Origin: Clostridia bacterium
GTDB taxonomy: Bacteria; Bacillota; Clostridia; RUG12999
Direction of reading: 5' to 3'
Assembly: GCA_045648785.1 (NCBI GenBank)
Contig: JAZROP010000018.1
Location: forward strand, 4,311-68,310
DNA: 64,000 nt
Below are positions 1-9,085 of the stretch, piece by piece (within the stretch, counting starts at the first letter, position 1; each line of letters begins with the position of its first letter). Below the pieces are notes generated by a model. It did no database searches. It saw nothing but the letters and a program-made list of their open reading frames with translations, and had not been told where the DNA came from. A program made the position numbers and the translations under genes.

Positions 1-769
1 TACCCCCACAGATTTTCATATGAGTTAGTCTATTACCCTGCTCATCCTGAGTAATTTTATATACTTTTGCACCAAACTCATCTCTTTTTTCTGCCGGCAA
101 CGTAAATTCATCAAACAGCTTTAAAAACTCGTCAACTCCCTCCTGTTTTAACGCTGAGCCAAAAAAACAGGGGAATATTTTTCTTCTTTTTATCAGTCTT
201 AATATTCTATCCTTGCCAACTTCTCCACTTTCAAGAAATTCTTGCATCGCTTTTTCATCCGACAGAGCAACGCTTTCGTAAAAGCTTTCGCTGCCGAAAG
301 ATGCAAAATCAATACAGTTATCATCAAGCTTTGCTTTGAGATTATGCAAAAGAGCGTTCGCACTGTAGCTTGAAATATCCATTTTGTTTACAAATATAAA
401 CACCGGAATATTTTTGTTTTTGAGAATATACCACAGCGTTTCGGTGTGGCTCTGCACTCCCTCGCTTCCACTTACAACCAAAACCGCATAATCAAGCACC
501 GAGAGAGTTCTCTCGGTTTCTGCCGAGAAATCCACATGACCAGGAGTGTCCAGCAGGGTAATCTCGCTTGAGGCAGTCTTTAAAACTGCTTGTTTTGCGA
601 AAATGGTAATTCCCCGTTCCCGTTCTATTATGTTTGTATCAAGAAAAGTATCCCCGTGGTCAACTCTGCCTCTTTTTCTTATCTCACCCGCTGAGTATAA
701 AAGCCCCTCGGATAAGGTGGTTTTACCTGAGTCAACATGAGCGAGGATTCCCGTCACAAGTTTCTTCAT
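1..769 (-). CDS. Translational GTPase of the TetM/TetW-like ribosome-protection family (5' part only; runs off the window start; absent from the ORF track)
   Basis: Manual translation from ATG at 769 (RBS AAGGTG): MKKLVTGILAHVDSGKTTLSEGLLY...RGRVDHGDTFLDT..ERERGITIF..LLDTPGHVDF..FVNKMD..FFGSALK; G1-G5 motifs intact. Confidence 0.85.
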   Translation of the reverse strand, partial: MKKLVTGILAHVDSGKTTLSEGLLYSAGEIRKRGRVDHGDTFLDTNIIERERGITIFAKQAVLKTASSEITLLDTPGHVDFSAETERTLSVLDYAVLVVSGSEGVQSHTETLWYILKNKNIPVFIFVNKMDISSYSANALLHNLKAKLDDNCIDFASFGSESFYESVALSDEKAMQEFLESGEVGKDRILRLIKRRKIFPCFFGSALKQEGVDEFLKLFDEFTLPAEKRDEFGAKVYKITQDEQGNRLTHMKICGG

Positions 770-840
770 ATTGTCACCTTAGTTTATTCATTAATTTTAT
801 TGTATCATAAAAAATATACTTTGTAAAATATTATTTCTAT

Positions 841-871
841 TGTTGAAAAATTCAACATTATATGTTATACT
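841..871 (+). promoter_or_regulatory. sigmaA-type promoter with an overlapping inverted repeat
   Basis: TTGAAA (843-848), 17 nt, TATACT (866-871) with TG extension; TGTTGAA-AAA-TTCAACA palindrome at 841-857. Confidence 0.55.
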
Positions 872-5200: not shown

Positions 5201-5711
5201 CATAAAAGATGGCGACAGAGTCACCTTTATAGGCATACTTGCCGGTCGCAAGGATAAGGTCACAAAAACAGGTTCAACCATGACATTCCTTGATGTTGAA
5301 GACACTTTCGGCTCGGTTGAAACTGTTGTTTTCTCTAATCTTTTTTCAAAGACAAAACATCTGTTTGAAGAAAATGTGCCCCTCGTGGTTCGCGGAAGAA
5401 TTGATATAAACGAGCAGGAATCAAAAATAATTGCAGACGATATAGACCTTCTGGAAAATGTAAATATTTCCGCTCCCACCGCTCCTGAGGAGAGCAAGCT
5501 ATATATAAAATTTGCATTGGGTAAGGATTTTCTTCTGCCTCAGGTGAAGGAGTTTTTAAAAAAATCTCCAGGCAACACGCCCGTGTATATTTTTATTGAA
5601 GAAACAAGGCAGACCTTTGTCGCCGATGCGGAATTTTCGGTTAACCCAACCGAAAATCTTCTCGGTGAGCTTAAAGATTTTCTTGGCAATGATTGTGTTG
5701 TGCTGAAATAA
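2250..5711 (+). CDS. dnaE: DNA polymerase III alpha subunit
   Basis: PHP domain HLHTHTEFSLLDG/AITDHGN; GPGRGSAAGS; PDIDIDF; KMDFLGL; YGFNKSH; OB fold; 1153 aa. Confidence 0.97.
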   Translation: MSNFVHLHTHTEFSLLDGACRIKKLVSRVKELGMNAIAITDHGNMYGVIDFYKEAKKQGIKPILGCEVYTAPRSRFEMEGRQDAEPGHLVLLAENDTGWHNIIKIVSAGFTEGFYYKPRVDLELLREHSEGIIALSACLAGDIARSLMEQNIEKAEKYIENYTEIFGKDNFFIELQDHGIPEQKQVNSHLISLAEKHGLGLVVTNDIHYVNRSDAKFHDILLCIQTNRKVTDENRMKFYSDEFYVKSPEEMAKIFPAIQEATENTVKIADRCNVEIEFGNFHLPKFEIPDGSDSFSYLKKQCEQGLKERYPDSWQSLSDRLDYELTTINNMGYVDYFLIVWDFIRFAKERGIMVGPGRGSAAGSLVSYVLKITDVDPVKYSLIFERFLNPERISMPDIDIDFCIERRQEVINYVIEKYGEKSVSQIITFGTMGAKQAIRDCARALDIPYADADKIAKLIPNELKMTIDKALETSELKSLYAEDEMVRKVIDAAKEVEGMVRHSSVHAAGVVICAGDVTNYIPLSKNGDAVTTQFVKDTVEEMGLLKMDFLGLRNLTIIRDALAMIKQDTGEEIDLAHIDYNIPEIYYMLSAGNTDGVFQLESRGMRSFIRELKPKNLEDIIAGISLFRPGPMDQIPTYIKNKNNPDGVTYKHPLLKPILEVTYGCMVYQEQVMEICRNLGGYSFGRADLVRRAMSKKKFDVMEQEAKNFVYGITDENGNVTLSGAIRNGVPEDVAISIFDEMIEFANYGFNKSHAACYAFVAYWTAYLKYKYPVHFMAALLSSVLSDSAKIYQYITDCERMGIKVLPPDINSSFDGFSPVGGNIRFGLGAVKNVGHNVVAQVVEERKSSPFTDFTDFAERMQGKDMNKRTVESLIRSGAFDTLPHSRAQLLEAYERILDRLTNEKKGNAAGQLSLFGDVLNEKPNDFKDIPELSLQEILSMEKEMLGLYVSGHPLESYAEILNKIPHVSCGDIALAQAEDPEAPIKDGDRVTFIGILAGRKDKVTKTGSTMTFLDVEDTFGSVETVVFSNLFSKTKHLFEENVPLVVRGRIDINEQESKIIADDIDLLENVNISAPTAPEESKLYIKFALGKDFLLPQVKEFLKKSPGNTPVYIFIEETRQTFVADAEFSVNPTENLLGELKDFLGNDCVVLK

Positions 5712-5713
5712 TG

Positions 5714-5755
5714 TAGCAAAGGCAACCATTTGGTTGCCTTTGCTATTGCTTTTTT
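5714..5755. terminator. Intrinsic terminator between convergent genes
   Basis: TAGCAAAGGCAACCA-TT-TGGTTGCCTTTGCTA followed by a T-run. Confidence 0.8.
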
Positions 5756-6524
5756 AAATCGTTTTTTTCTTTCTTACAAAAACATAAATTAGAATTCCTG
5801 ATAGGACAACAAAAATTATAGCAATTGCAATCATTCCCTTATTTTCCCTGTCATTCATCGTGGCGCCTCCGCCGTATTTCAATGTTTCGTCATTTTTGCT
5901 TCGCCGTTTAAGAAACTCTTCAACCAAATTATCTTCATTTGTTTTTATATTGCAAGTTCTCCCAACAACATCATACGTATCAGCTCTGTCTAAATCGACA
6001 AACACTTCTTCTGTCCCATCCGTTACAACAAAACCATTTATAATTGTGGTGTCTGTTACATATTTTGCACTATCAAAATCTATCTCTTTTTTCTCTCTAA
6101 TAAAACTATCGGAAAGTGGTCCTGCAGTAACGCAAAAAACTCTATACCCCTCCTGGCTTTTTATAACTTCAACAACTGCAATTTCTCTGCCCGAAACAAT
6201 TATTGGAAAATAATACTTATTATCTTTTACCAAATACGAAGAAACCTTTTCTTCTCCTTTTTTATATGCTTTTTCCAATTCTACAAAGTCTACTGCGTAT
6301 CCCTCAACACCTTCACCGAACTCTATTGTATTTAGATCATCCTCCGGGGTTATATTAAAATTTTCAGGATCCCCACGAAGCGGAATTAGAATGGTTTCAT
6401 AATTATCTATAGTTCCGCTTGCCAACAACTCCTCTATATCAGCAATTTCATTTGAAACCTCGGCCGTTACAGTCATACCAAACAAAAGGATAGTCACACA
6501 AATTAGTGTAAATAATTTCTTCAT
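5754..6524 (-). CDS. Exported protein with signal peptide and C-terminal membrane anchor; resembles a staphopain-type prodomain
   Basis: MKKLFTLICVTILLFGMTVTA signal peptide; DNKYYFPIIVSGREIAVVEV; C-terminal YGGG..hydrophobic helix..RKKK; RBS GAGGAG. Confidence 0.75.
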   Translation of the reverse strand: MKKLFTLICVTILLFGMTVTAEVSNEIADIEELLASGTIDNYETILIPLRGDPENFNITPEDDLNTIEFGEGVEGYAVDFVELEKAYKKGEEKVSSYLVKDNKYYFPIIVSGREIAVVEVIKSQEGYRVFCVTAGPLSDSFIREKKEIDFDSAKYVTDTTIINGFVVTDGTEEVFVDLDRADTYDVVGRTCNIKTNEDNLVEEFLKRRSKNDETLKYGGGATMNDRENKGMIAIAIIFVVLSGILIYVFVRKKKTI

Positions 6525-6549
6525 TTTCTCATCTCCTCATATCAAGCAA

Positions 6550-7116
6550 TCAAGATTTCTTCTTATTATTGTACCAGGTTGCATTCCAATAAAAAGTGGA
6601 ATTATTACAATAATCACTAAAATTATAATAGGAACGCTGCGTTCCACTCATTTTTGGATCTAAAACATATACCCCTTGATATATATCATTATTCTCTTCA
6701 TATCCATATATAATTTGGGCGTGTCCTCCACCACTATTTGACCATCTAATACCTACCGCTATTGGACTATACCAACCTGACAGCATATTTTTTATTGTAC
6801 TAAATTGAATAGCTGTTGGTGTATAAGTGGTTGAAACCATATACCATCCAAGTACGCTTGTCACTTCAGAGTCCGTTGCTCCTTCATTTACCGCAGACCC
6901 CTTTAATGTAGTAACTATATCGCTTTGACTGGGCAATGGTTCCCACGAATTAAGATAATCAATAACCATTAAAACCACTGCTGCCCAACACCAATTTGTT
7001 TTTTCTTGCCTTCTATCTGTCATATTAAGCTTGTGTGTGGTTGCACCCACGTTAATAGCACTTCCCATAATAATTATTACAATCATTATAAATGATAAAA
7101 ATTTATATTTCTTCAA
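6550..7116 (-). CDS. Secreted papain-fold cysteine peptidase (C39-like/C47/C70-like)
   Basis: Likely TTG start at 7116 after GAGGAG; signal peptide; RQEKTNWCWAA (Gln oxyanion hole, Cys), GGHAQIIYGY (His), VLDP (Asp). Confidence 0.85.
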   Translation of the reverse strand: MKKYKFLSFIMIVIIIMGSAINVGATTHKLNMTDRRQEKTNWCWAAVVLMVIDYLNSWEPLPSQSDIVTTLKGSAVNEGATDSEVTSVLGWYMVSTTYTPTAIQFSTIKNMLSGWYSPIAVGIRWSNSGGGHAQIIYGYEENNDIYQGVYVLDPKMSGTQRSYYNFSDYCNNSTFYWNATWYNNKKKS

Positions 7117-7183
7117 TAGTATCACTCCTCATAATATTTTTTAATAAAACCACTTCGCAAATACTATATTATCATTTCCTTAC

Positions 7184-7239
7184 AAAAAAGAAAAACGTGT
7201 AAATCAATCCTCATACCTTAGAGGGCTGACCTACACGTT
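7184..7239 (-). terminator. Long intrinsic terminator / possible attenuator hairpin
   Basis: On the minus strand AACGUGUAGGUCAGCCCUC-8 nt loop-GAGGAUUGAUUUACACGUU then UUUCUUUUUU; three G-U pairs work only on this strand. Confidence 0.75.
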
Positions 7240-7261
7240 ACATTGCCATTTTCTTCACTTT

Positions 7262-7336
7262 TTACATATCTGCAAAGGAGAACGACCGAAGCTGTAATTT
7301 AAGTGTATCAATCCTCTTTAAAAAACACTTGCCCAT
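7262..7336 (-). CDS. Unannotated 24-aa small ORF / candidate leader peptide MGKCFLKRIDTLKLQLRSFSFADM
   Basis: Purine-rich RBS AAGGGGGAG 6 nt upstream of the ATG; sits between a consensus promoter and a terminator. Confidence 0.55.
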   Translation of the reverse strand: MGKCFLKRIDTLKLQLRSFSFADM

Positions 7337-7366
7337 CGGTATCTCCCCCTTTTTTATTACATCACC

Positions 7367-7395
7367 ATTGTATCATATATATTTTTTAATGTCAA
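7367..7395 (-). promoter_or_regulatory. Near-consensus sigmaA promoter
   Basis: TTGACA, 17 nt, TACAAT with TG extension. Confidence 0.7.
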
Positions 7396-7432
7396 TACCC
7401 ATATAAAGTGTTTTGCAAGTTCGCACACTATT

Positions 7433-8203
7433 TTATATATATTTTTTCATATGACTCAGTGCCGATTTTTCCAACCGGCTCACCTGCGCCTGTGAAATTC
7501 CAATTTCCTGAGCAACCTCCATCTGGGTTCTGCCTTTGAAAAATCTGAGACTTAAAATATGTCTCTCGCGTTCTGAAAGTTTATCTATGGCGTTATGCAG
7601 AGCAATGTTTTCAATCCAGTTTTCGTCGGTGCTTTTGCCGTCCTTGACCTGGTCCATTATATAAACAGCGTCGCCGCCGTCATGATATATCGGCTCATAC
7701 AGGGAAACGGGGTCCTGAATGGCATCAAGTGCAAATGTTACCTCTTCCCTTGTTATATCAAGCTGTTTTGCTATTTCATCAAGTGTAGGTTCCTGTCCGG
7801 TTAAATTTGTCAATCTTTCTTTTGTCTGCAACACTTTATATGCGGTATCTCTTATAGAACGACTAACTCTTATAGGGTTGTTATCCCTTAAATATCTTCT
7901 GATTTCCCCTATAATCATGGGTACGGCATATGTTGAAAACTGGACATTCTGAGAGGTGTCAAAATTATCAATTGCTTTAATAAGTCCCACGCAGCCCACC
8001 TGAAACAAATCGTCAGCATTTTCGCCACCTCGTCCTGAAAATCGTTTCATAACACTTAAAACCAGTCTTAGATTTCCATAGACAAACTCCTCCCTTGCCG
8101 CCTCATCACCTTGCTTTATTCTCTCAAAAAGTTCTTTCTTCTTTTCTCTTGATAAAACCGGCAGCTTTGATGTGTTAACACCACAAATTTCCACCTTATT
8201 CAT
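7433..8203 (-). CDS. sigG: Forespore sigma factor SigG
   Basis: MNKVEICGVNTSKLPVL; DDLFQVGCVGLIKAIDNFD; YAVPMIIGEIRRYLRDNNPIRVSRS; GISQAQVSRLEK. Confidence 0.96.
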   Translation of the reverse strand: MNKVEICGVNTSKLPVLSREKKKELFERIKQGDEAAREEFVYGNLRLVLSVMKRFSGRGGENADDLFQVGCVGLIKAIDNFDTSQNVQFSTYAVPMIIGEIRRYLRDNNPIRVSRSIRDTAYKVLQTKERLTNLTGQEPTLDEIAKQLDITREEVTFALDAIQDPVSLYEPIYHDGGDAVYIMDQVKDGKSTDENWIENIALHNAIDKLSERERHILSLRFFKGRTQMEVAQEIGISQAQVSRLEKSALSHMKKYI

Positions 8204-8290
8204 ATGTGCACCTCCGGAAATAATCATCTTACGATTCTATTATTGCCGGAGCGGGAAATATTTAACCTACCGATTCAAAGTTTATTTTCG

Positions 8291-8333
8291 ACAAAAGAAA
8301 ACCACCTGTACAATACCTACTTGAACAGGTGGT
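8291..8333 (-). terminator. Intrinsic terminator upstream of sigG
   Basis: ACCACCTGT..ACAGGTGGT stem, followed by TTTCTTTT on the minus strand. Confidence 0.55.
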
Positions 8334-8491
8334 CAATAATAGTTTTTAGTCTTTTTATGTGGATAAATTCAGTTTCTGTCTATTAAAACAAGTATGTCAT
8401 ATAAAAAATATACGCTTCATAAGTGATATACCACCACTTGTTAAAAACGGTAACCAAATTAAATGGGCTCCGTAAGTACTCACATCATATT

Positions 8492-9004
8492 TTATTCTTC
8501 CCTTATTGATTTAAATCGTGCATTTAAATGAACCATATGGGCAACTGAAAAGCAAAGACTGTATAGAATGTCCTTTTCCTCCGATGATGTTTCACCGCAT
8601 TTATCCATAGCTCTTTTAAAACCGAAAATATAAAGAATCATATTTTCCAGTTCGTCGCACATATAATTATAGGCAACCGGCACAGAATAAGATTGTTTCT
8701 GCATTTCAAGCATCAAATTCACATCTTCAAGCGATATAATTGTTTTTGCTATTGTAACAAAAAACAAATGGGCTATATGTTCTGCAAAATACTGTTTTTT
8801 TACAGGATTAGGCACTAGCCCCTTTTTAACATAATTACTGAGCATTGACGCTGTAATTTCCATGCACCCGAGCGGTTTTAAATATCCGTTTATATATTTA
8901 GTTGTCTGTTCAAGATACAGTCCCATATCGGGAATTTCATTGTACCGCGGCAAACGGAAACCGCACACAGATTCCACAATATGCTGTTTTACGCTATTTT
9001 TCAT
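8492..9004 (-). CDS. DUF1836 family protein (predicted HTH regulator)
   Basis: LPRYNEIPDMGLYLEQ..ITASMLSNYVKKGLV..PVKKQY signature; divergent from degV. Confidence 0.85.
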   Translation of the reverse strand: MKNSVKQHIVESVCGFRLPRYNEIPDMGLYLEQTTKYINGYLKPLGCMEITASMLSNYVKKGLVPNPVKKQYFAEHIAHLFFVTIAKTIISLEDVNLMLEMQKQSYSVPVAYNYMCDELENMILYIFGFKRAMDKCGETSSEEKDILYSLCFSVAHMVHLNARFKSIREE

Positions 9005-9010
9005 ACCTCT

Positions 9011-9085
9011 ATTATACAAGATTTTATAAATTTGTCAATAAGTTTTTCAAAAACCCTTTACAAGTTTTACAAAATCTGCTATAAT
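9011..9085. promoter_or_regulatory. Back-to-back sigmaA promoters sharing a spacer motif
   Basis: Minus: TTGACA-16-TATAAT (9038-9011); plus: TTTACA-17-TATAAT (9057-9085). Confidence 0.6.

What the first reader, a model, noticed from the sequence alone, without database searches (positions are those of the whole stretch)
5754..7116. Possible split staphopain-like zymogen: secreted propeptide-less Cys protease plus a membrane-tethered prodomain-like partner
Seen: an AT-rich two-gene islet between dnaE and sigG. Gene 1 has a signal peptide followed within about 12 residues by the catalytic core (Q..WC, GH, DP), leaving no room for a propeptide. Gene 2 has a signal peptide, a beta-rich domain and a C-terminal YGGG-TM-RKKK anchor. 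Knowledge, recalled from memory and not aligned: staphopains (C47) are one-chain zymogens whose prodomain has a segment like DNSYYYPVIKDGKIV; gene 2 has DNKYYFPIIVSGREI, preceded by a similar G..Y strand. Inference: the inhibitory or chaperone prodomain is encoded in trans and pinned to the producer's surface, forming a protease/inhibitor or effector/immunity module, or a surface display system for the protease.
Basis: partly seen in the sequence, partly recalled or inferred. Interest (0 to 1): 0.8.

Follow-up and report, generated by a model that had tools for sequence, protein, structure and literature searches.

The report
Split staphopain-like zymogen, tethered prodomain
A gut Clostridia genome carries a small inserted operon in which a secreted cysteine protease has lost its usual built-in safety/folding domain, and that domain is instead made as a separate, membrane-anchored protein from the next gene.

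Summary
Window 7116..6550 (-) encodes a 188-aa secreted clan-CA cysteine peptidase (Pfam C70/C39_2) with only 12 residues between the signal-peptide cut and the oxyanion Gln. Window 6524..5754 (-) encodes a 256-aa protein with a signal peptide, an ectodomain and a GGG-TM-RKKK anchor. They form a 1.7-kb AT-rich insert between dnaE and sigG that is missing from a same-genus genome.

The gene-2 family profile aligns to the proregion of single-chain Clostridia zymogens (hhalign 96-97.6%). Those zymogens match prostaphopain B (E 5.3e-19; proregions alone 7.2e-5). The gene-2 model's best PDB match is the prostaphopain B proregion (Z 6.9, middling).

A complex prediction scores 0.90 against 0.00 for controls, and the interface covers Cys43 and His132. 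A reverse-order natural fusion exists. Every prodomain-less relative examined has an exported, membrane-anchored downstream gene.

Against obligate pairing, gene-2 homologues stand alone in 4 of 10 genomes, with at least 3 independent changes. Direct Pfam and PDB sequence searches with gene 2 find nothing. Binding, inhibition and chaperoning are unmeasured.

Verdict: a split staphopain-type zymogen with a tethered trans-prodomain, a new variant of a known kind.

The parts
6550..7116 (-). Gene 1: a 188-aa Sec-secreted, prodomain-less clan-CA cysteine peptidase. Signal peptide about aa 1-25; Q37, C43, H132, D153.
   Evidence: ORF and start. Pfam Peptidase_C70 45.3 bits (cut-off 19) and C39_2 25.8 bits (cut-off 24). 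The AF2 model's Foldseek hits include staphopains (1y4h_A 1.7e-4; 8oig_A TMq 0.62) and other minimal papain-like folds.
5754..6524 (-). Gene 2: a 256-aa type-I membrane protein made of signal peptide, staphopain-proregion-like ectodomain, GGG, TM and a basic tail.
   Evidence: ORF. No Pfam family. Family of 16 close and 46 wider proteins. hhalign to zymogen proregions 93.7-97.6%. Best PDB fold match is 1x9y residues 48-188.
5880..6449 (-). Gene-2 ectodomain (aa 26-215), the proregion-like part. The predicted protease-contacting residues lie within it.
   Evidence: With signal peptide and TM trimmed off, hhalign to proregions gives prob 96.0, E 3.9e-9; against the protease domain as a control, prob 0.1. 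Interface residues 41-56, 130-138, 158-163, 178-181 and 207-215.
5757..5873 (-). Juxtamembrane GGG (aa 218-220), TM helix (aa 230-250) and RKKKTI tail: a C-terminal membrane anchor, not an LPXTG signal.
   Evidence: Sequence. A GG(G) motif and TM plus basic tail are conserved across the family. TIGR01167 scores 14.1 bits, below its 15.9 cut-off, and there is no LPXTG.
7367..7395 (-). Sigma-70-like promoter (TTGACA, 17 nt, TG-extended TACAAT) at the head of the islet.
   Evidence: 11 of 12 consensus match. Consensus only; not shown to be functional.
7168..7352 (-). Conserved leader between the promoter and gene 1: a first hairpin, then a long terminator-like hairpin (about 7239..7195) followed by a U run.
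   Evidence: Aligned in 5 loci from different genomes. Consensus fold has 32 pairs, only 1 with a compensatory change. No Rfam match at E<=1.
5714..5745 (.). Bidirectional intrinsic terminator shared by dnaE (+) and gene 2 (-).
   Evidence: 14-15 pair stem with T runs on both strands.
5712..7432 (.). The whole inserted islet between the dnaE stop and the sigG stop.
   Evidence: In same-genus G018 the dnaE-sigG gap is about 120 nt. In G019 it holds a different insert of about 780 nt. Gene 2 was found in 0 of 24 other genomes of the family. GC is low.

Best explanation
The two genes are a staphopain-type zymogen split into two exported polypeptides. Gene 1 is the catalytic domain alone. Gene 2 is a homologue of the staphopain proregion that has gained its own signal peptide and a C-terminal membrane anchor. 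After Sec export, the tethered proregion-like ectodomain binds the protease across its Cys43-His132 cleft. This holds the protease latent at the producer's membrane surface (self-protection, timing) and probably also templates its folding, as covalent proregions and external chaperones do. Active enzyme is then freed by dissociation or by cleavage of the partner. Shown in silico: homology of both halves, the operon structure, conserved linkage, a natural fusion, and a predicted active-site-covering interface. Inferred: actual binding, inhibition, the folding role and the release step.
For: Homology of gene 2 to the proregion:
- A3 (38 gene-2 relatives) against A4 (10 fused zymogens): hhalign prob 97.6, E 4.4e-12, onto the N-terminal proregion.
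- With signal peptide and TM removed: prob 96.0, E 3.9e-9. Negative control against the protease domain: prob 0.1.
- Against two proregions alone (A7): prob 93.7, E 2e-7.

The fused zymogens are staphopain-like:
- L023 and L024 score above the Pfam C47 cut-off, and L024 hits Staphopain_pro at 0.037.
- 2 of 9 homologues carry PF14731.
- The A4 profile hits prostaphopain B 1x9y at 5.3e-19 over proregion plus protease. A7 alone hits 1x9y at 7.2e-5, the top PDB hit, next best 0.014.

Gene 1 is homologous to their protease domain:
- The A2 profile finds L023 at 1.9e-12 and L024 at 2.9e-8.
- hhalign A2 against the A4 protease domain: prob 98.6, E 7.4e-16. Against the proregion: prob 0.5.

Fold: the gene-2 model's rank-1 match is 1x9y residues 48-188, with Z 6.9, rmsd 4.2 and 129 residues aligned. 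This held both among Foldseek's list and in an independent scan of 48,161 chains. Foldseek gave E 1.3e-2.

Binding: complex prediction scored 0.90, best of 3 controls 0.00. That mark was reached by 58 of 80 solved complexes and 2 of 110 mismatched pairs. The runs agree in at least 78% of contacts and partner pLDDT is at least 82. The interface includes C43, W44 and residues 127-133 with H132.

Linkage: the protease-then-partner order is seen in 6 of 10 genomes that hold a gene-2 family member, including a pair whose protease is only 31% identical. All 4 close gene-1 homologues in a 400-genome class sample are paired. The 4 more distant prodomain-less ones each have an exported membrane-anchored gene directly downstream.

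Fusion: P0057 joins a C39_2/C70 domain (aa 27-165) to a gene-2-like domain (aa 205-369). On the protease tree it nests inside the split clade, which one 99/97 branch separates from the fused zymogens.
Against: - No direct sequence hit links gene 2 to the proregion. Pfam at E<=10 gave none. PF14731 found nothing in the whole genome at E<=10. The A1 and A3 profiles against PDB did not find 1x9y at E<=10. The link is therefore transitive.
- Z 6.9 is middling and is tied within 1 unit with generic cystatin/NTF2-like folds.
- The complex pass may owe something to the solved prostaphopain B structure, a like complex within one chain. My own alignments were used, so the calibration holds only roughly.
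- Predicted interface residues are no more conserved than the rest: gene 2 p=0.49, gene 1 p=0.97.
- Gene-2 homologues are intact but lack any A2 or C70 protease in 4 of 10 genomes. One of those genomes is 98% complete. At least 3 changes are needed on the tree. So the partner has some role without a cognate protease.
- The distant partners resemble the family only weakly, at hhalign 65%, 29%, 19% and 6%.
- Nothing has been measured, and no RNA data exist.
Confidence: 0.6

Rival explanations
1. Pure protective inhibitor, immunity-like. The protease folds on its own and is a freely released enzyme or weapon. Gene 2 is only a surface-tethered inhibitor that shields the producer's membrane-proximal proteins. 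Orphan copies in other genomes protect against neighbours' proteases.
For: - Gene-2 homologues persist as intact exported, anchored ORFs without the protease in 4 of 10 genomes, interspersed with paired copies (at least 3 changes). This is the pattern known for orphan immunity genes (recalled).
- No prodomain-less protease was seen without a downstream anchored partner.
- The predicted interface is variable rather than conserved, as expected for specificity-determining pairs.
- The islet is mobile and patchy: 7 of 400 class genomes, 0 of 24 other family genomes.
- The best Foldseek hit of gene 1 is a papain-like toxin/immunity pair, 9l5u_B at 1.3e-4.
- Published precedents exist for adjacent inhibitor genes (Spi, staphostatins, Bfi) with a proposed self-protection role (PMC2873492, passages read).
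Against: - Homology is to a proregion, whose known roles include folding as well as inhibition.
- Gene 1 has no proregion of its own, unlike SpeB and the staphopains, which keep theirs alongside the extra inhibitor.
- The 9l5u-type toxins act in the target cytoplasm after T6SS or CDI delivery (abstract of PMC12136450). They are not Sec-secreted enzymes.
- Loss of the protease with a leftover partner could also be neutral decay caught early.
Confidence: 0.27
2. Surface display. Gene 2 is a membrane anchor that holds an active protease on the cell surface without blocking it.
For: The C-terminal TM anchor and the high-confidence predicted complex. The operon gives roughly 1:1 co-expression (inference).
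Against: The predicted interface includes catalytic C43, W44 and the 127-133 loop with H132. The domain is homologous to an inhibitory proregion.
Confidence: 0.08
3. There is no functional link. The two exported proteins merely sit side by side on a mobile islet, and the proregion resemblance is a generic cystatin/NTF2-like fold.
For: Z 6.9 is tied with generic folds. Direct HMM searches are negative. Gene 2 occurs alone in some genomes.
Against: The profile-profile results come with clean negative controls. Gene order is conserved down to 31% protease identity. A natural fusion exists. The complex scored 0.90 against 0.00 for the best control.
Confidence: 0.05

Closest known systems
Prostaphopain B / staphopain zymogens (MEROPS C47; PDB 1x9y)
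   Same: A papain-like catalytic domain with the same fold class. The proregion is homologous by a transitive profile chain and is the rank-1 structural match. The shared motif pair G.G..Y and YY(F/Y)P.I..G..(I/V) is visible in tool alignments.
   Different: Here the proregion is a separate gene placed after the protease, not before it. It has its own signal peptide, about 50 extra residues and a membrane anchor. Gene 1 scores C70/C39_2 rather than C47 in Pfam. From memory, not read here: the 1x9y paper reports that the proregion occludes primed sites only.
Single-chain proregion-protease zymogens of other Clostridia (L023 391 aa, L024 372 aa, P0070-P0077)
   Same: These are the closest fused relatives of both halves.
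   Different: They are covalent, proregion first, and unanchored. One 99/97 branch on the protease tree separates them from all split forms.
Staphopain-staphostatin operons (scpAB, sspBC) and Bacteroides Bfp-Bfi
   Same: A protease gene followed by a co-transcribed specific inhibitor gene, with a proposed self-protection role (PMC2873492, passages read).
   Different: Staphostatins are lipocalin-like and cytoplasmic, and their proteases keep their own proregion. Gene 2 is proregion-like, exported and anchored.
SpeB-Spi of Streptococcus pyogenes (C10)
   Same: The inhibitor encoded next to the protease is a 'propeptide analogue' (PMC2873492, passage read; the primary paper, Kagawa 2005, was seen only as a reference).
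   Different: SpeB retains its covalent propeptide. The peptidase family is different. From memory, Spi has no signal peptide or membrane anchor.
Aeromonas sobria serine protease ASP and its external chaperone ORF2
   Same: A secreted protease without its own propeptide depends on a protein encoded just downstream for folding and maturation (PMC13492141, passages read; Kobayashi 2015 title seen in reference lists; that paper is not held).
   Different: ASP is a serine (kexin-like S8) protease in a Gram-negative periplasm. As far as I recall, ORF2 has not been reported to be homologous to a propeptide and is not membrane-anchored.
AvrRpt2 (Peptidase_C70)
   Same: Best Pfam family for gene 1. 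It has a Cys-His-Asp arrangement. C47 and C70 are placed in one subcluster by a published classification (PMC10318531, passage read).
   Different: AvrRpt2 is a type III effector of plant pathogens. Its structural match here is weak (6hqz_A, 1.1e-2). Gene 1 is Sec-secreted by a gut Clostridia bacterium.

Membership tests
Peptidase_C70 (PF12385), for gene 1 | Pfam HMM score above the gathering cut-off | tested here: met
   45.3 bits against a cut-off of 19, E 1.1e-11, profile positions 5-136 of 141.
Peptidase_C70 (PF12385), for gene 1 | Catalytic Cys, His and Asp in order and conserved | tested here: met
   H132 is invariant; C43, Q37 and D153 are conserved in at least 90% of 11 homologues.
Peptidase_C47 (staphopain, PF05543), for gene 1 | Pfam HMM match | tested here: not met
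   C47 is not listed at E<=10 for gene 1. Its fused relatives L023 and L024 do pass, at 28.7 and 22.9 bits against a cut-off of 22.6.
Peptidase_C47 (staphopain, PF05543), for gene 1 | Staphopain-like fold | tested here: met
   1y4h_A at 1.7e-4, 8oig_A with TMq 0.62, 1cv8 at 2.5e-3. Similar scores go to C39, phytochelatin synthase and CDI-toxin folds, so the match is not specific (model pLDDT 70.5).
Peptidase_C47 (staphopain, PF05543), for gene 1 | Covalent N-terminal proregion (one-chain zymogen) | tested here: not met
   Only 12 residues lie between the predicted signal-peptide cut (A25) and Q37.
Staphopain_pro (PF14731), for gene 2 | Pfam HMM match | tested here: not met
   No hit at E<=10 by hmmscan or by a whole-genome search.
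Staphopain_pro (PF14731), for gene 2 | Homology to bona fide proregions by profile-profile comparison | tested here: met
   A3 against A4: 97.6%, E 4.4e-12. Trimmed: 96.0%, E 3.9e-9. A3 against A7: 93.7%, E 2e-7. Controls: 0.1-0.5%. A7 finds 1x9y at 7.2e-5. PF14731 is present on 2 of 9 A4-type homologues.
Staphopain_pro (PF14731), for gene 2 | Proregion fold as in 1x9y | tested here: inconclusive
   Rank 1 of 48,161 chains, but Z is only 6.9 (rmsd 4.2, 129 aligned) and is tied within 1 unit with cystatin-like folds.
Staphostatin (lipocalin-like inhibitor of C47) | Small cytoplasmic 8-stranded beta-barrel | tested here: inconclusive
   Gene 2 has a signal peptide and a TM helix and is 256 aa. 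No staphostatin chain appears among the 50 rows shown. Absence from a list does not exclude the fold.
LPXTG sortase substrate | LPXTG motif before the TM and basic tail | tested here: not met
   TIGR01167 scores 14.1 bits, below 15.9, and matches only the TM and tail. No LPXTG-like motif is present; the family consensus there is GGG.
Protease-inhibitor / zymogen-like complex | Physical binding that blocks the active site | not testable with these tools
   Prediction only: score 0.90, best control 0.00, interface includes C43 and H132.

The most novel reading that the evidence does not exclude
Tethered trans-prodomains may be a recurrent, convergently evolved device. In this reading, fission of a zymogen, followed by export and membrane anchoring of the prodomain, turns it into a surface immunity and maturation factor for a secreted protease. 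Orphan copies (4 of 10 genomes here) would then act as community-level resistance genes against neighbours' proteases in the gut. A second element: the conserved juxtamembrane GG(G) may be the latch or cleavage site that this protease, whose fold resembles double-glycine peptidases, uses to shed the complex. If that note is right, the theme spans unrelated protease clans.
Probability: 0.2. Interest if true: 0.8.

Novelty: new variant of a known kind. Interest (0 to 1): 0.62.

Why it matters
Protease prodomains are textbook covalent, N-terminal modules. This locus would be a natural case in which the staphopain-type prodomain is a separate, exported, membrane-anchored protein, and fused, split and re-fused relatives are available for comparison.

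- It allows a direct test of how far inhibition and folding assistance need covalent linkage in clan-CA enzymes.
- It supplies matched protease/blocker pairs of graded divergence.
- It suggests how small-genome gut Clostridia control, or resist, secreted cysteine proteases.

Four literature searches found no description of such a split for C47/C70 peptidases.

Tried and rejected
- Direct family scans of gene 2 (Pfam, NCBIfam) and PDB sequence searches with gene 2, A1 and A3 gave only chance-level rows.
- A PF14731 search of the whole genome at E<=10 found nothing.
- I dropped the sortase/LPXTG reading of the C-terminus.
- I tested whether the predicted interface is more conserved than the rest. 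It is not.
- I looked for expression data. No RNA holder was listed for the islet, and read laying was not used.
- Rfam on 5400-8600 gave only MicX at E 0.069 on the dnaE/gene-2 terminator, which I take as chance.
- The 24-aa ORF with a strong SD in the leader (7335..7261) is not conserved: L005 has ATA at the start position and L011 lacks the ORF. I read the leader as RNA.
- The ESM Atlas gave a Staphopain_pro cluster only at rank 8 with score 0.80, below the level that counts.
- No staphostatin chain was listed in any fold search. That absence proves nothing.
- The L022 208-aa N-anchored neighbour could not be tied to the family (hhalign 6%).
- The primary papers on prostaphopain B, SpeB-Spi and ASP-ORF2 are not held. 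What I say of them is from reference lists, citing passages or memory, as marked.
Full report
**What is there**

The minus strand carries two co-oriented genes 25 nt apart, each behind a GAGGAG ribosome-binding site.

Gene 1 is 7116..6550 with a TTG start, and its homologues also begin MKKYK. It encodes 188 aa: a typical Sec signal peptide (cut predicted after A25), then Q37, C43, H132 and D153-P154. Pfam places it in Peptidase_C70 (1.1e-11, 45.3 bits against a cut-off of 19) and Peptidase_C39_2 (1.8e-5). C47 is not listed at E<=10.

Gene 2 is 6524..5754 and encodes 256 aa: a signal peptide, an ectodomain, GGG (218-220), a TM helix (230-250) and an RKKKTI tail. It has no Pfam family. The only NCBIfam signal is a sub-threshold match of the TM and tail to the LPXTG-anchor model, and there is no LPXTG motif.

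The flanking genes are dnaE and sigG. GC falls to 0.31-0.37 across the pair, against 0.40-0.46 in dnaE.

**It is an insert**

In the same-genus genome G018 (sigG 97% identical), dnaE and sigG are about 120 nt apart with only a terminator between them. In G019 the same gap holds a different insert of about 780 nt. Gene 2 was found in 0 of 24 other genomes of the family. It was found in 7 of 400 genomes sampled across the class, scattered over several families. The islet is therefore mobile and patchy.

It brings its own sigma-70-like promoter and a leader of about 185 nt. The leader has a terminator-like hairpin, is conserved in five loci, and matches no Rfam family.

**Is gene 2 a staphopain proregion?**

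Direct searches say nothing:
- Pfam scan.
- PF14731 against the whole genome at E<=10.
- PDB sequence searches with the single protein, the 16-member profile A1 and the 38-member profile A3.

The link appears through intermediates. Searching class genomes with the gene-1 profile (A2) found two single-chain proteins, L023 (391 aa) and L024 (372 aa). Each has a C-terminal protease domain that matches A2 (1.9e-12 and 2.9e-8) and about 200 N-terminal residues ahead of it. Both pass the Pfam C47 cut-off as well as C70 and C39_2. L024 hits Staphopain_pro weakly at 0.037. Of their 9 database homologues, 2 carry PF14731.

- A profile of 10 such proteins (A4) matches prostaphopain B (1x9y) at 5.3e-19 over proregion and protease together.
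- A profile of two proregions alone (A7, no signal peptide, no protease) still finds 1x9y as the best PDB hit at 7.2e-5. The next best is 0.014.
- The gene-2 family profile aligns to the proregion part of A4 with hhalign probability 97.6%, E 4.4e-12.
- With signal peptide and TM trimmed off, the probability is 96.0%, E 3.9e-9.
- Control comparisons give 0.1% (gene-2 ectodomain against the protease domain) and 0.5% (gene 1 against the proregion). Gene 1 against the protease domain gives 98.6%, E 7.4e-16.
- A3 against A7 gives 93.7%, E 2e-7.

1x9y reads ELGEAFKIY ... NSYYYPVIKDGKIVYTLTL, and gene 2's EFGEGVEGY ... NKYYFPIIVSGREIAVVEV falls in the same proregion columns.

Structure agrees, modestly. 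The AF2 model of gene 2 (pLDDT 78.8) has 1x9y as its top Foldseek hit (E 1.3e-2). It is also the top VIA hit: Z 6.9, rmsd 4.2, 129 residues, chain residues 48-188, all within the proregion. This held in the re-ranking and in an independent scan of 48,161 chains. That Z is middling and is tied within one unit with generic cystatin/NTF2-like folds that cover only 70-90 residues.

**Gene 1**

The AF2 model (pLDDT 70.5) matches minimal papain-like folds:
- a protease toxin/immunity pair (9l5u_B, 1.3e-4);
- staphopains (1y4h_A 1.7e-4; 8oig_A TMq 0.62; 1cv8);
- C39 double-glycine peptidases;
- phytochelatin synthase;
- AvrRpt2 only weakly (1.1e-2).

A published classification puts C47 and C70 in one subcluster (PMC10318531, passage read).

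**Do the two proteins bind?**

Complex prediction was run with mature gene 1 (aa 26-188) and the gene-2 ectodomain (aa 23-215), each with its own alignment. The score was 0.90 and the best of 3 controls was 0.00. That mark was reached by 58 of 80 solved complexes and 2 of 110 mismatched pairs. The runs agree in at least 78% of contacts and partner pLDDT is at least 82.

The interface includes C43, W44 and residues 127-133 with H132 on the protease. On the partner it includes 41-56, 130-138, 158-163, 178-181 and the C-terminal 207-215.

Caveats:
- My own alignments were used, so the calibration holds only roughly.
- The solved one-chain prostaphopain B contains a like interface, so part of the pass may reflect likeness rather than independent evidence.
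- Interface residues are not more conserved than others: p=0.49 for gene 2 and p=0.97 for gene 1.

**Linkage**

Ten genomes with a gene-2 family member were examined. Six have the protease directly upstream: own, L002, L003, L005, L011, and L014, where the protease is only 31% identical and the partner is very divergent.

Four have gene 2 alone: L001, L004, L006 and L013.
- Their genomes have no A2 match at E<=0.1 (0 of 4).
- Three of them (L001, L004, L006) were also searched with PF12385 and have no match at E<=0.01 (0 of 3).
- One of the four is 98% complete.
- L001 does hold a different, 5'-cut C39_2-like peptidase ORF 2.5 kb upstream on the same strand.

On a tree of 11 gene-2 homologues the solo state needs at least 3 changes, for example solo L004 is sister to paired L005. 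Two of those rows were labelled paired only because the partner and protease records share a contig length.

From the protease side, 10 of 400 class genomes match A2:
- 4 close homologues, all paired;
- G252, G276 and G172, each with a downstream gene encoding signal peptide, ectodomain, G-rich stretch, TM and basic tail;
- G336, with an N-anchored 208-aa neighbour;
- G311 and G314, the fused zymogens.

Sequence similarity of these distant partners to the family is weak: hhalign 65%, 29%, 19% and 6%, against 0.1-0.3% for unrelated neighbours.

A library-wide profile search (46 hits at E<=1e-3) also found two notable proteins. P0057 is a natural fusion in the operon order, with a C39_2/C70 domain at aa 27-165 and a gene-2-like domain at aa 205-369. 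P0028 carries two tandem gene-2 domains.

On a tree of 25 protease domains, one branch (99/97) separates the 10 proregion-first zymogens from the 14 split forms plus P0057. The fragments P0026 and P0069 were left out of that tree. A single fission (or fusion) event is compatible with this. The tree is unrooted, so the direction is not shown.

**Mechanism**

Best reading (0.6): a split zymogen. The tethered proregion homologue captures the newly exported protease over its active site. That keeps it latent at the producer's membrane and probably helps it fold. Release would follow by dissociation or by cleavage of the partner.

Main rival (0.27): the partner is only a protective, immunity-like inhibitor. 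This explains the orphan copies best.

Surface display of an active enzyme (0.08) fits poorly with an interface that covers Cys43 and His132. Chance adjacency (0.05) fits poorly with the conserved order, the fusion and the controls.

**Comparison with what is known**

- Staphopains are one-chain zymogens. Their operons add a cytoplasmic lipocalin-like staphostatin.
- SpeB is followed by Spi, a propeptide analogue (PMC2873492, passages read). Both staphopains and SpeB keep their own propeptide.
- Aeromonas ASP lacks a propeptide and needs the downstream external chaperone ORF2 (PMC13492141, passages read). It is a serine protease in a periplasm.
- The present pair combines features not found together in these systems: no covalent proregion, a proregion homologue in trans placed after the protease gene, export, and a membrane tether.
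- Four literature searches found no description of this for C47/C70 enzymes. Only the held library was searched, and supplements were closed.

**Verdict**

It is a new variant of a known kind. Binding, inhibition and chaperoning all remain to be measured.

Noticed in passing
window 7168-7395 (- strand): A strong sigma-70-like promoter is followed by a leader of about 185 nt with two hairpins, the second terminator-like with a U run. The leader is conserved upstream of the protease gene in 5 loci from different genomes and has no Rfam match. It may be an attenuator or riboswitch-like control of the operon. Only 1 of 32 predicted pairs shows a compensatory change.
   Followed up: partly
window 7261-7335 (- strand): A 24-aa ORF with a strong Shine-Dalgarno lies inside the leader. 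Its start codon is not conserved (ATA in L005, absent in L011), so it is probably not a gene.
   Followed up: partly
window 5712-7432; L030 1940-2740; L031 1370-1510: The dnaE-sigG intergenic region is a variable insertion spot. It holds about 120 nt in G018. In G019 it holds a different insert of about 780 nt (a small HTH-like gene plus a small gene) bracketed by two copies of the same terminator hairpin. In this genome it holds the 1.7-kb protease islet.
   Followed up: partly
L001 1-4129: In one 'solo' genome the gene-2 homologue is the last gene of a same-strand cluster. The cluster begins with a 5'-cut C39_2-like cysteine peptidase ORF (1..864), followed by two exported proteins of unknown family (408 aa and 349 aa). 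The C-terminal part of the 349-aa protein recurs as a 181-aa lipoprotein-like gene upstream of the L013 homologue.
   Followed up: partly
L021, L025, L026 (genome G172): The distant protease-partner pair occurs in 2-3 identical copies in one genome. Each copy sits beside a multi-pass membrane ORF that looks AgrB-like by eye. This was not checked with any family scan.
   Followed up: no
P0028 (434 aa) and P0057 (382 aa): P0028 has two tandem gene-2-like domains before a single TM anchor. P0057 fuses the protease and a gene-2-like domain in the operon order and has no C-terminal anchor.
   Followed up: partly
L022 827-2292 (genome G336): A C70-like protease with an extra N-terminal region (weak SH3_3 hit, 0.23) is followed by a 208-aa protein with an N-terminal rather than C-terminal membrane anchor. 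Relatedness to gene 2 is not shown (hhalign 6%).
   Followed up: partly
window 8492-9019 (- strand): The 175-aa ORF next to sigG has no NCBIfam family at E<=1e-10.
   Followed up: no
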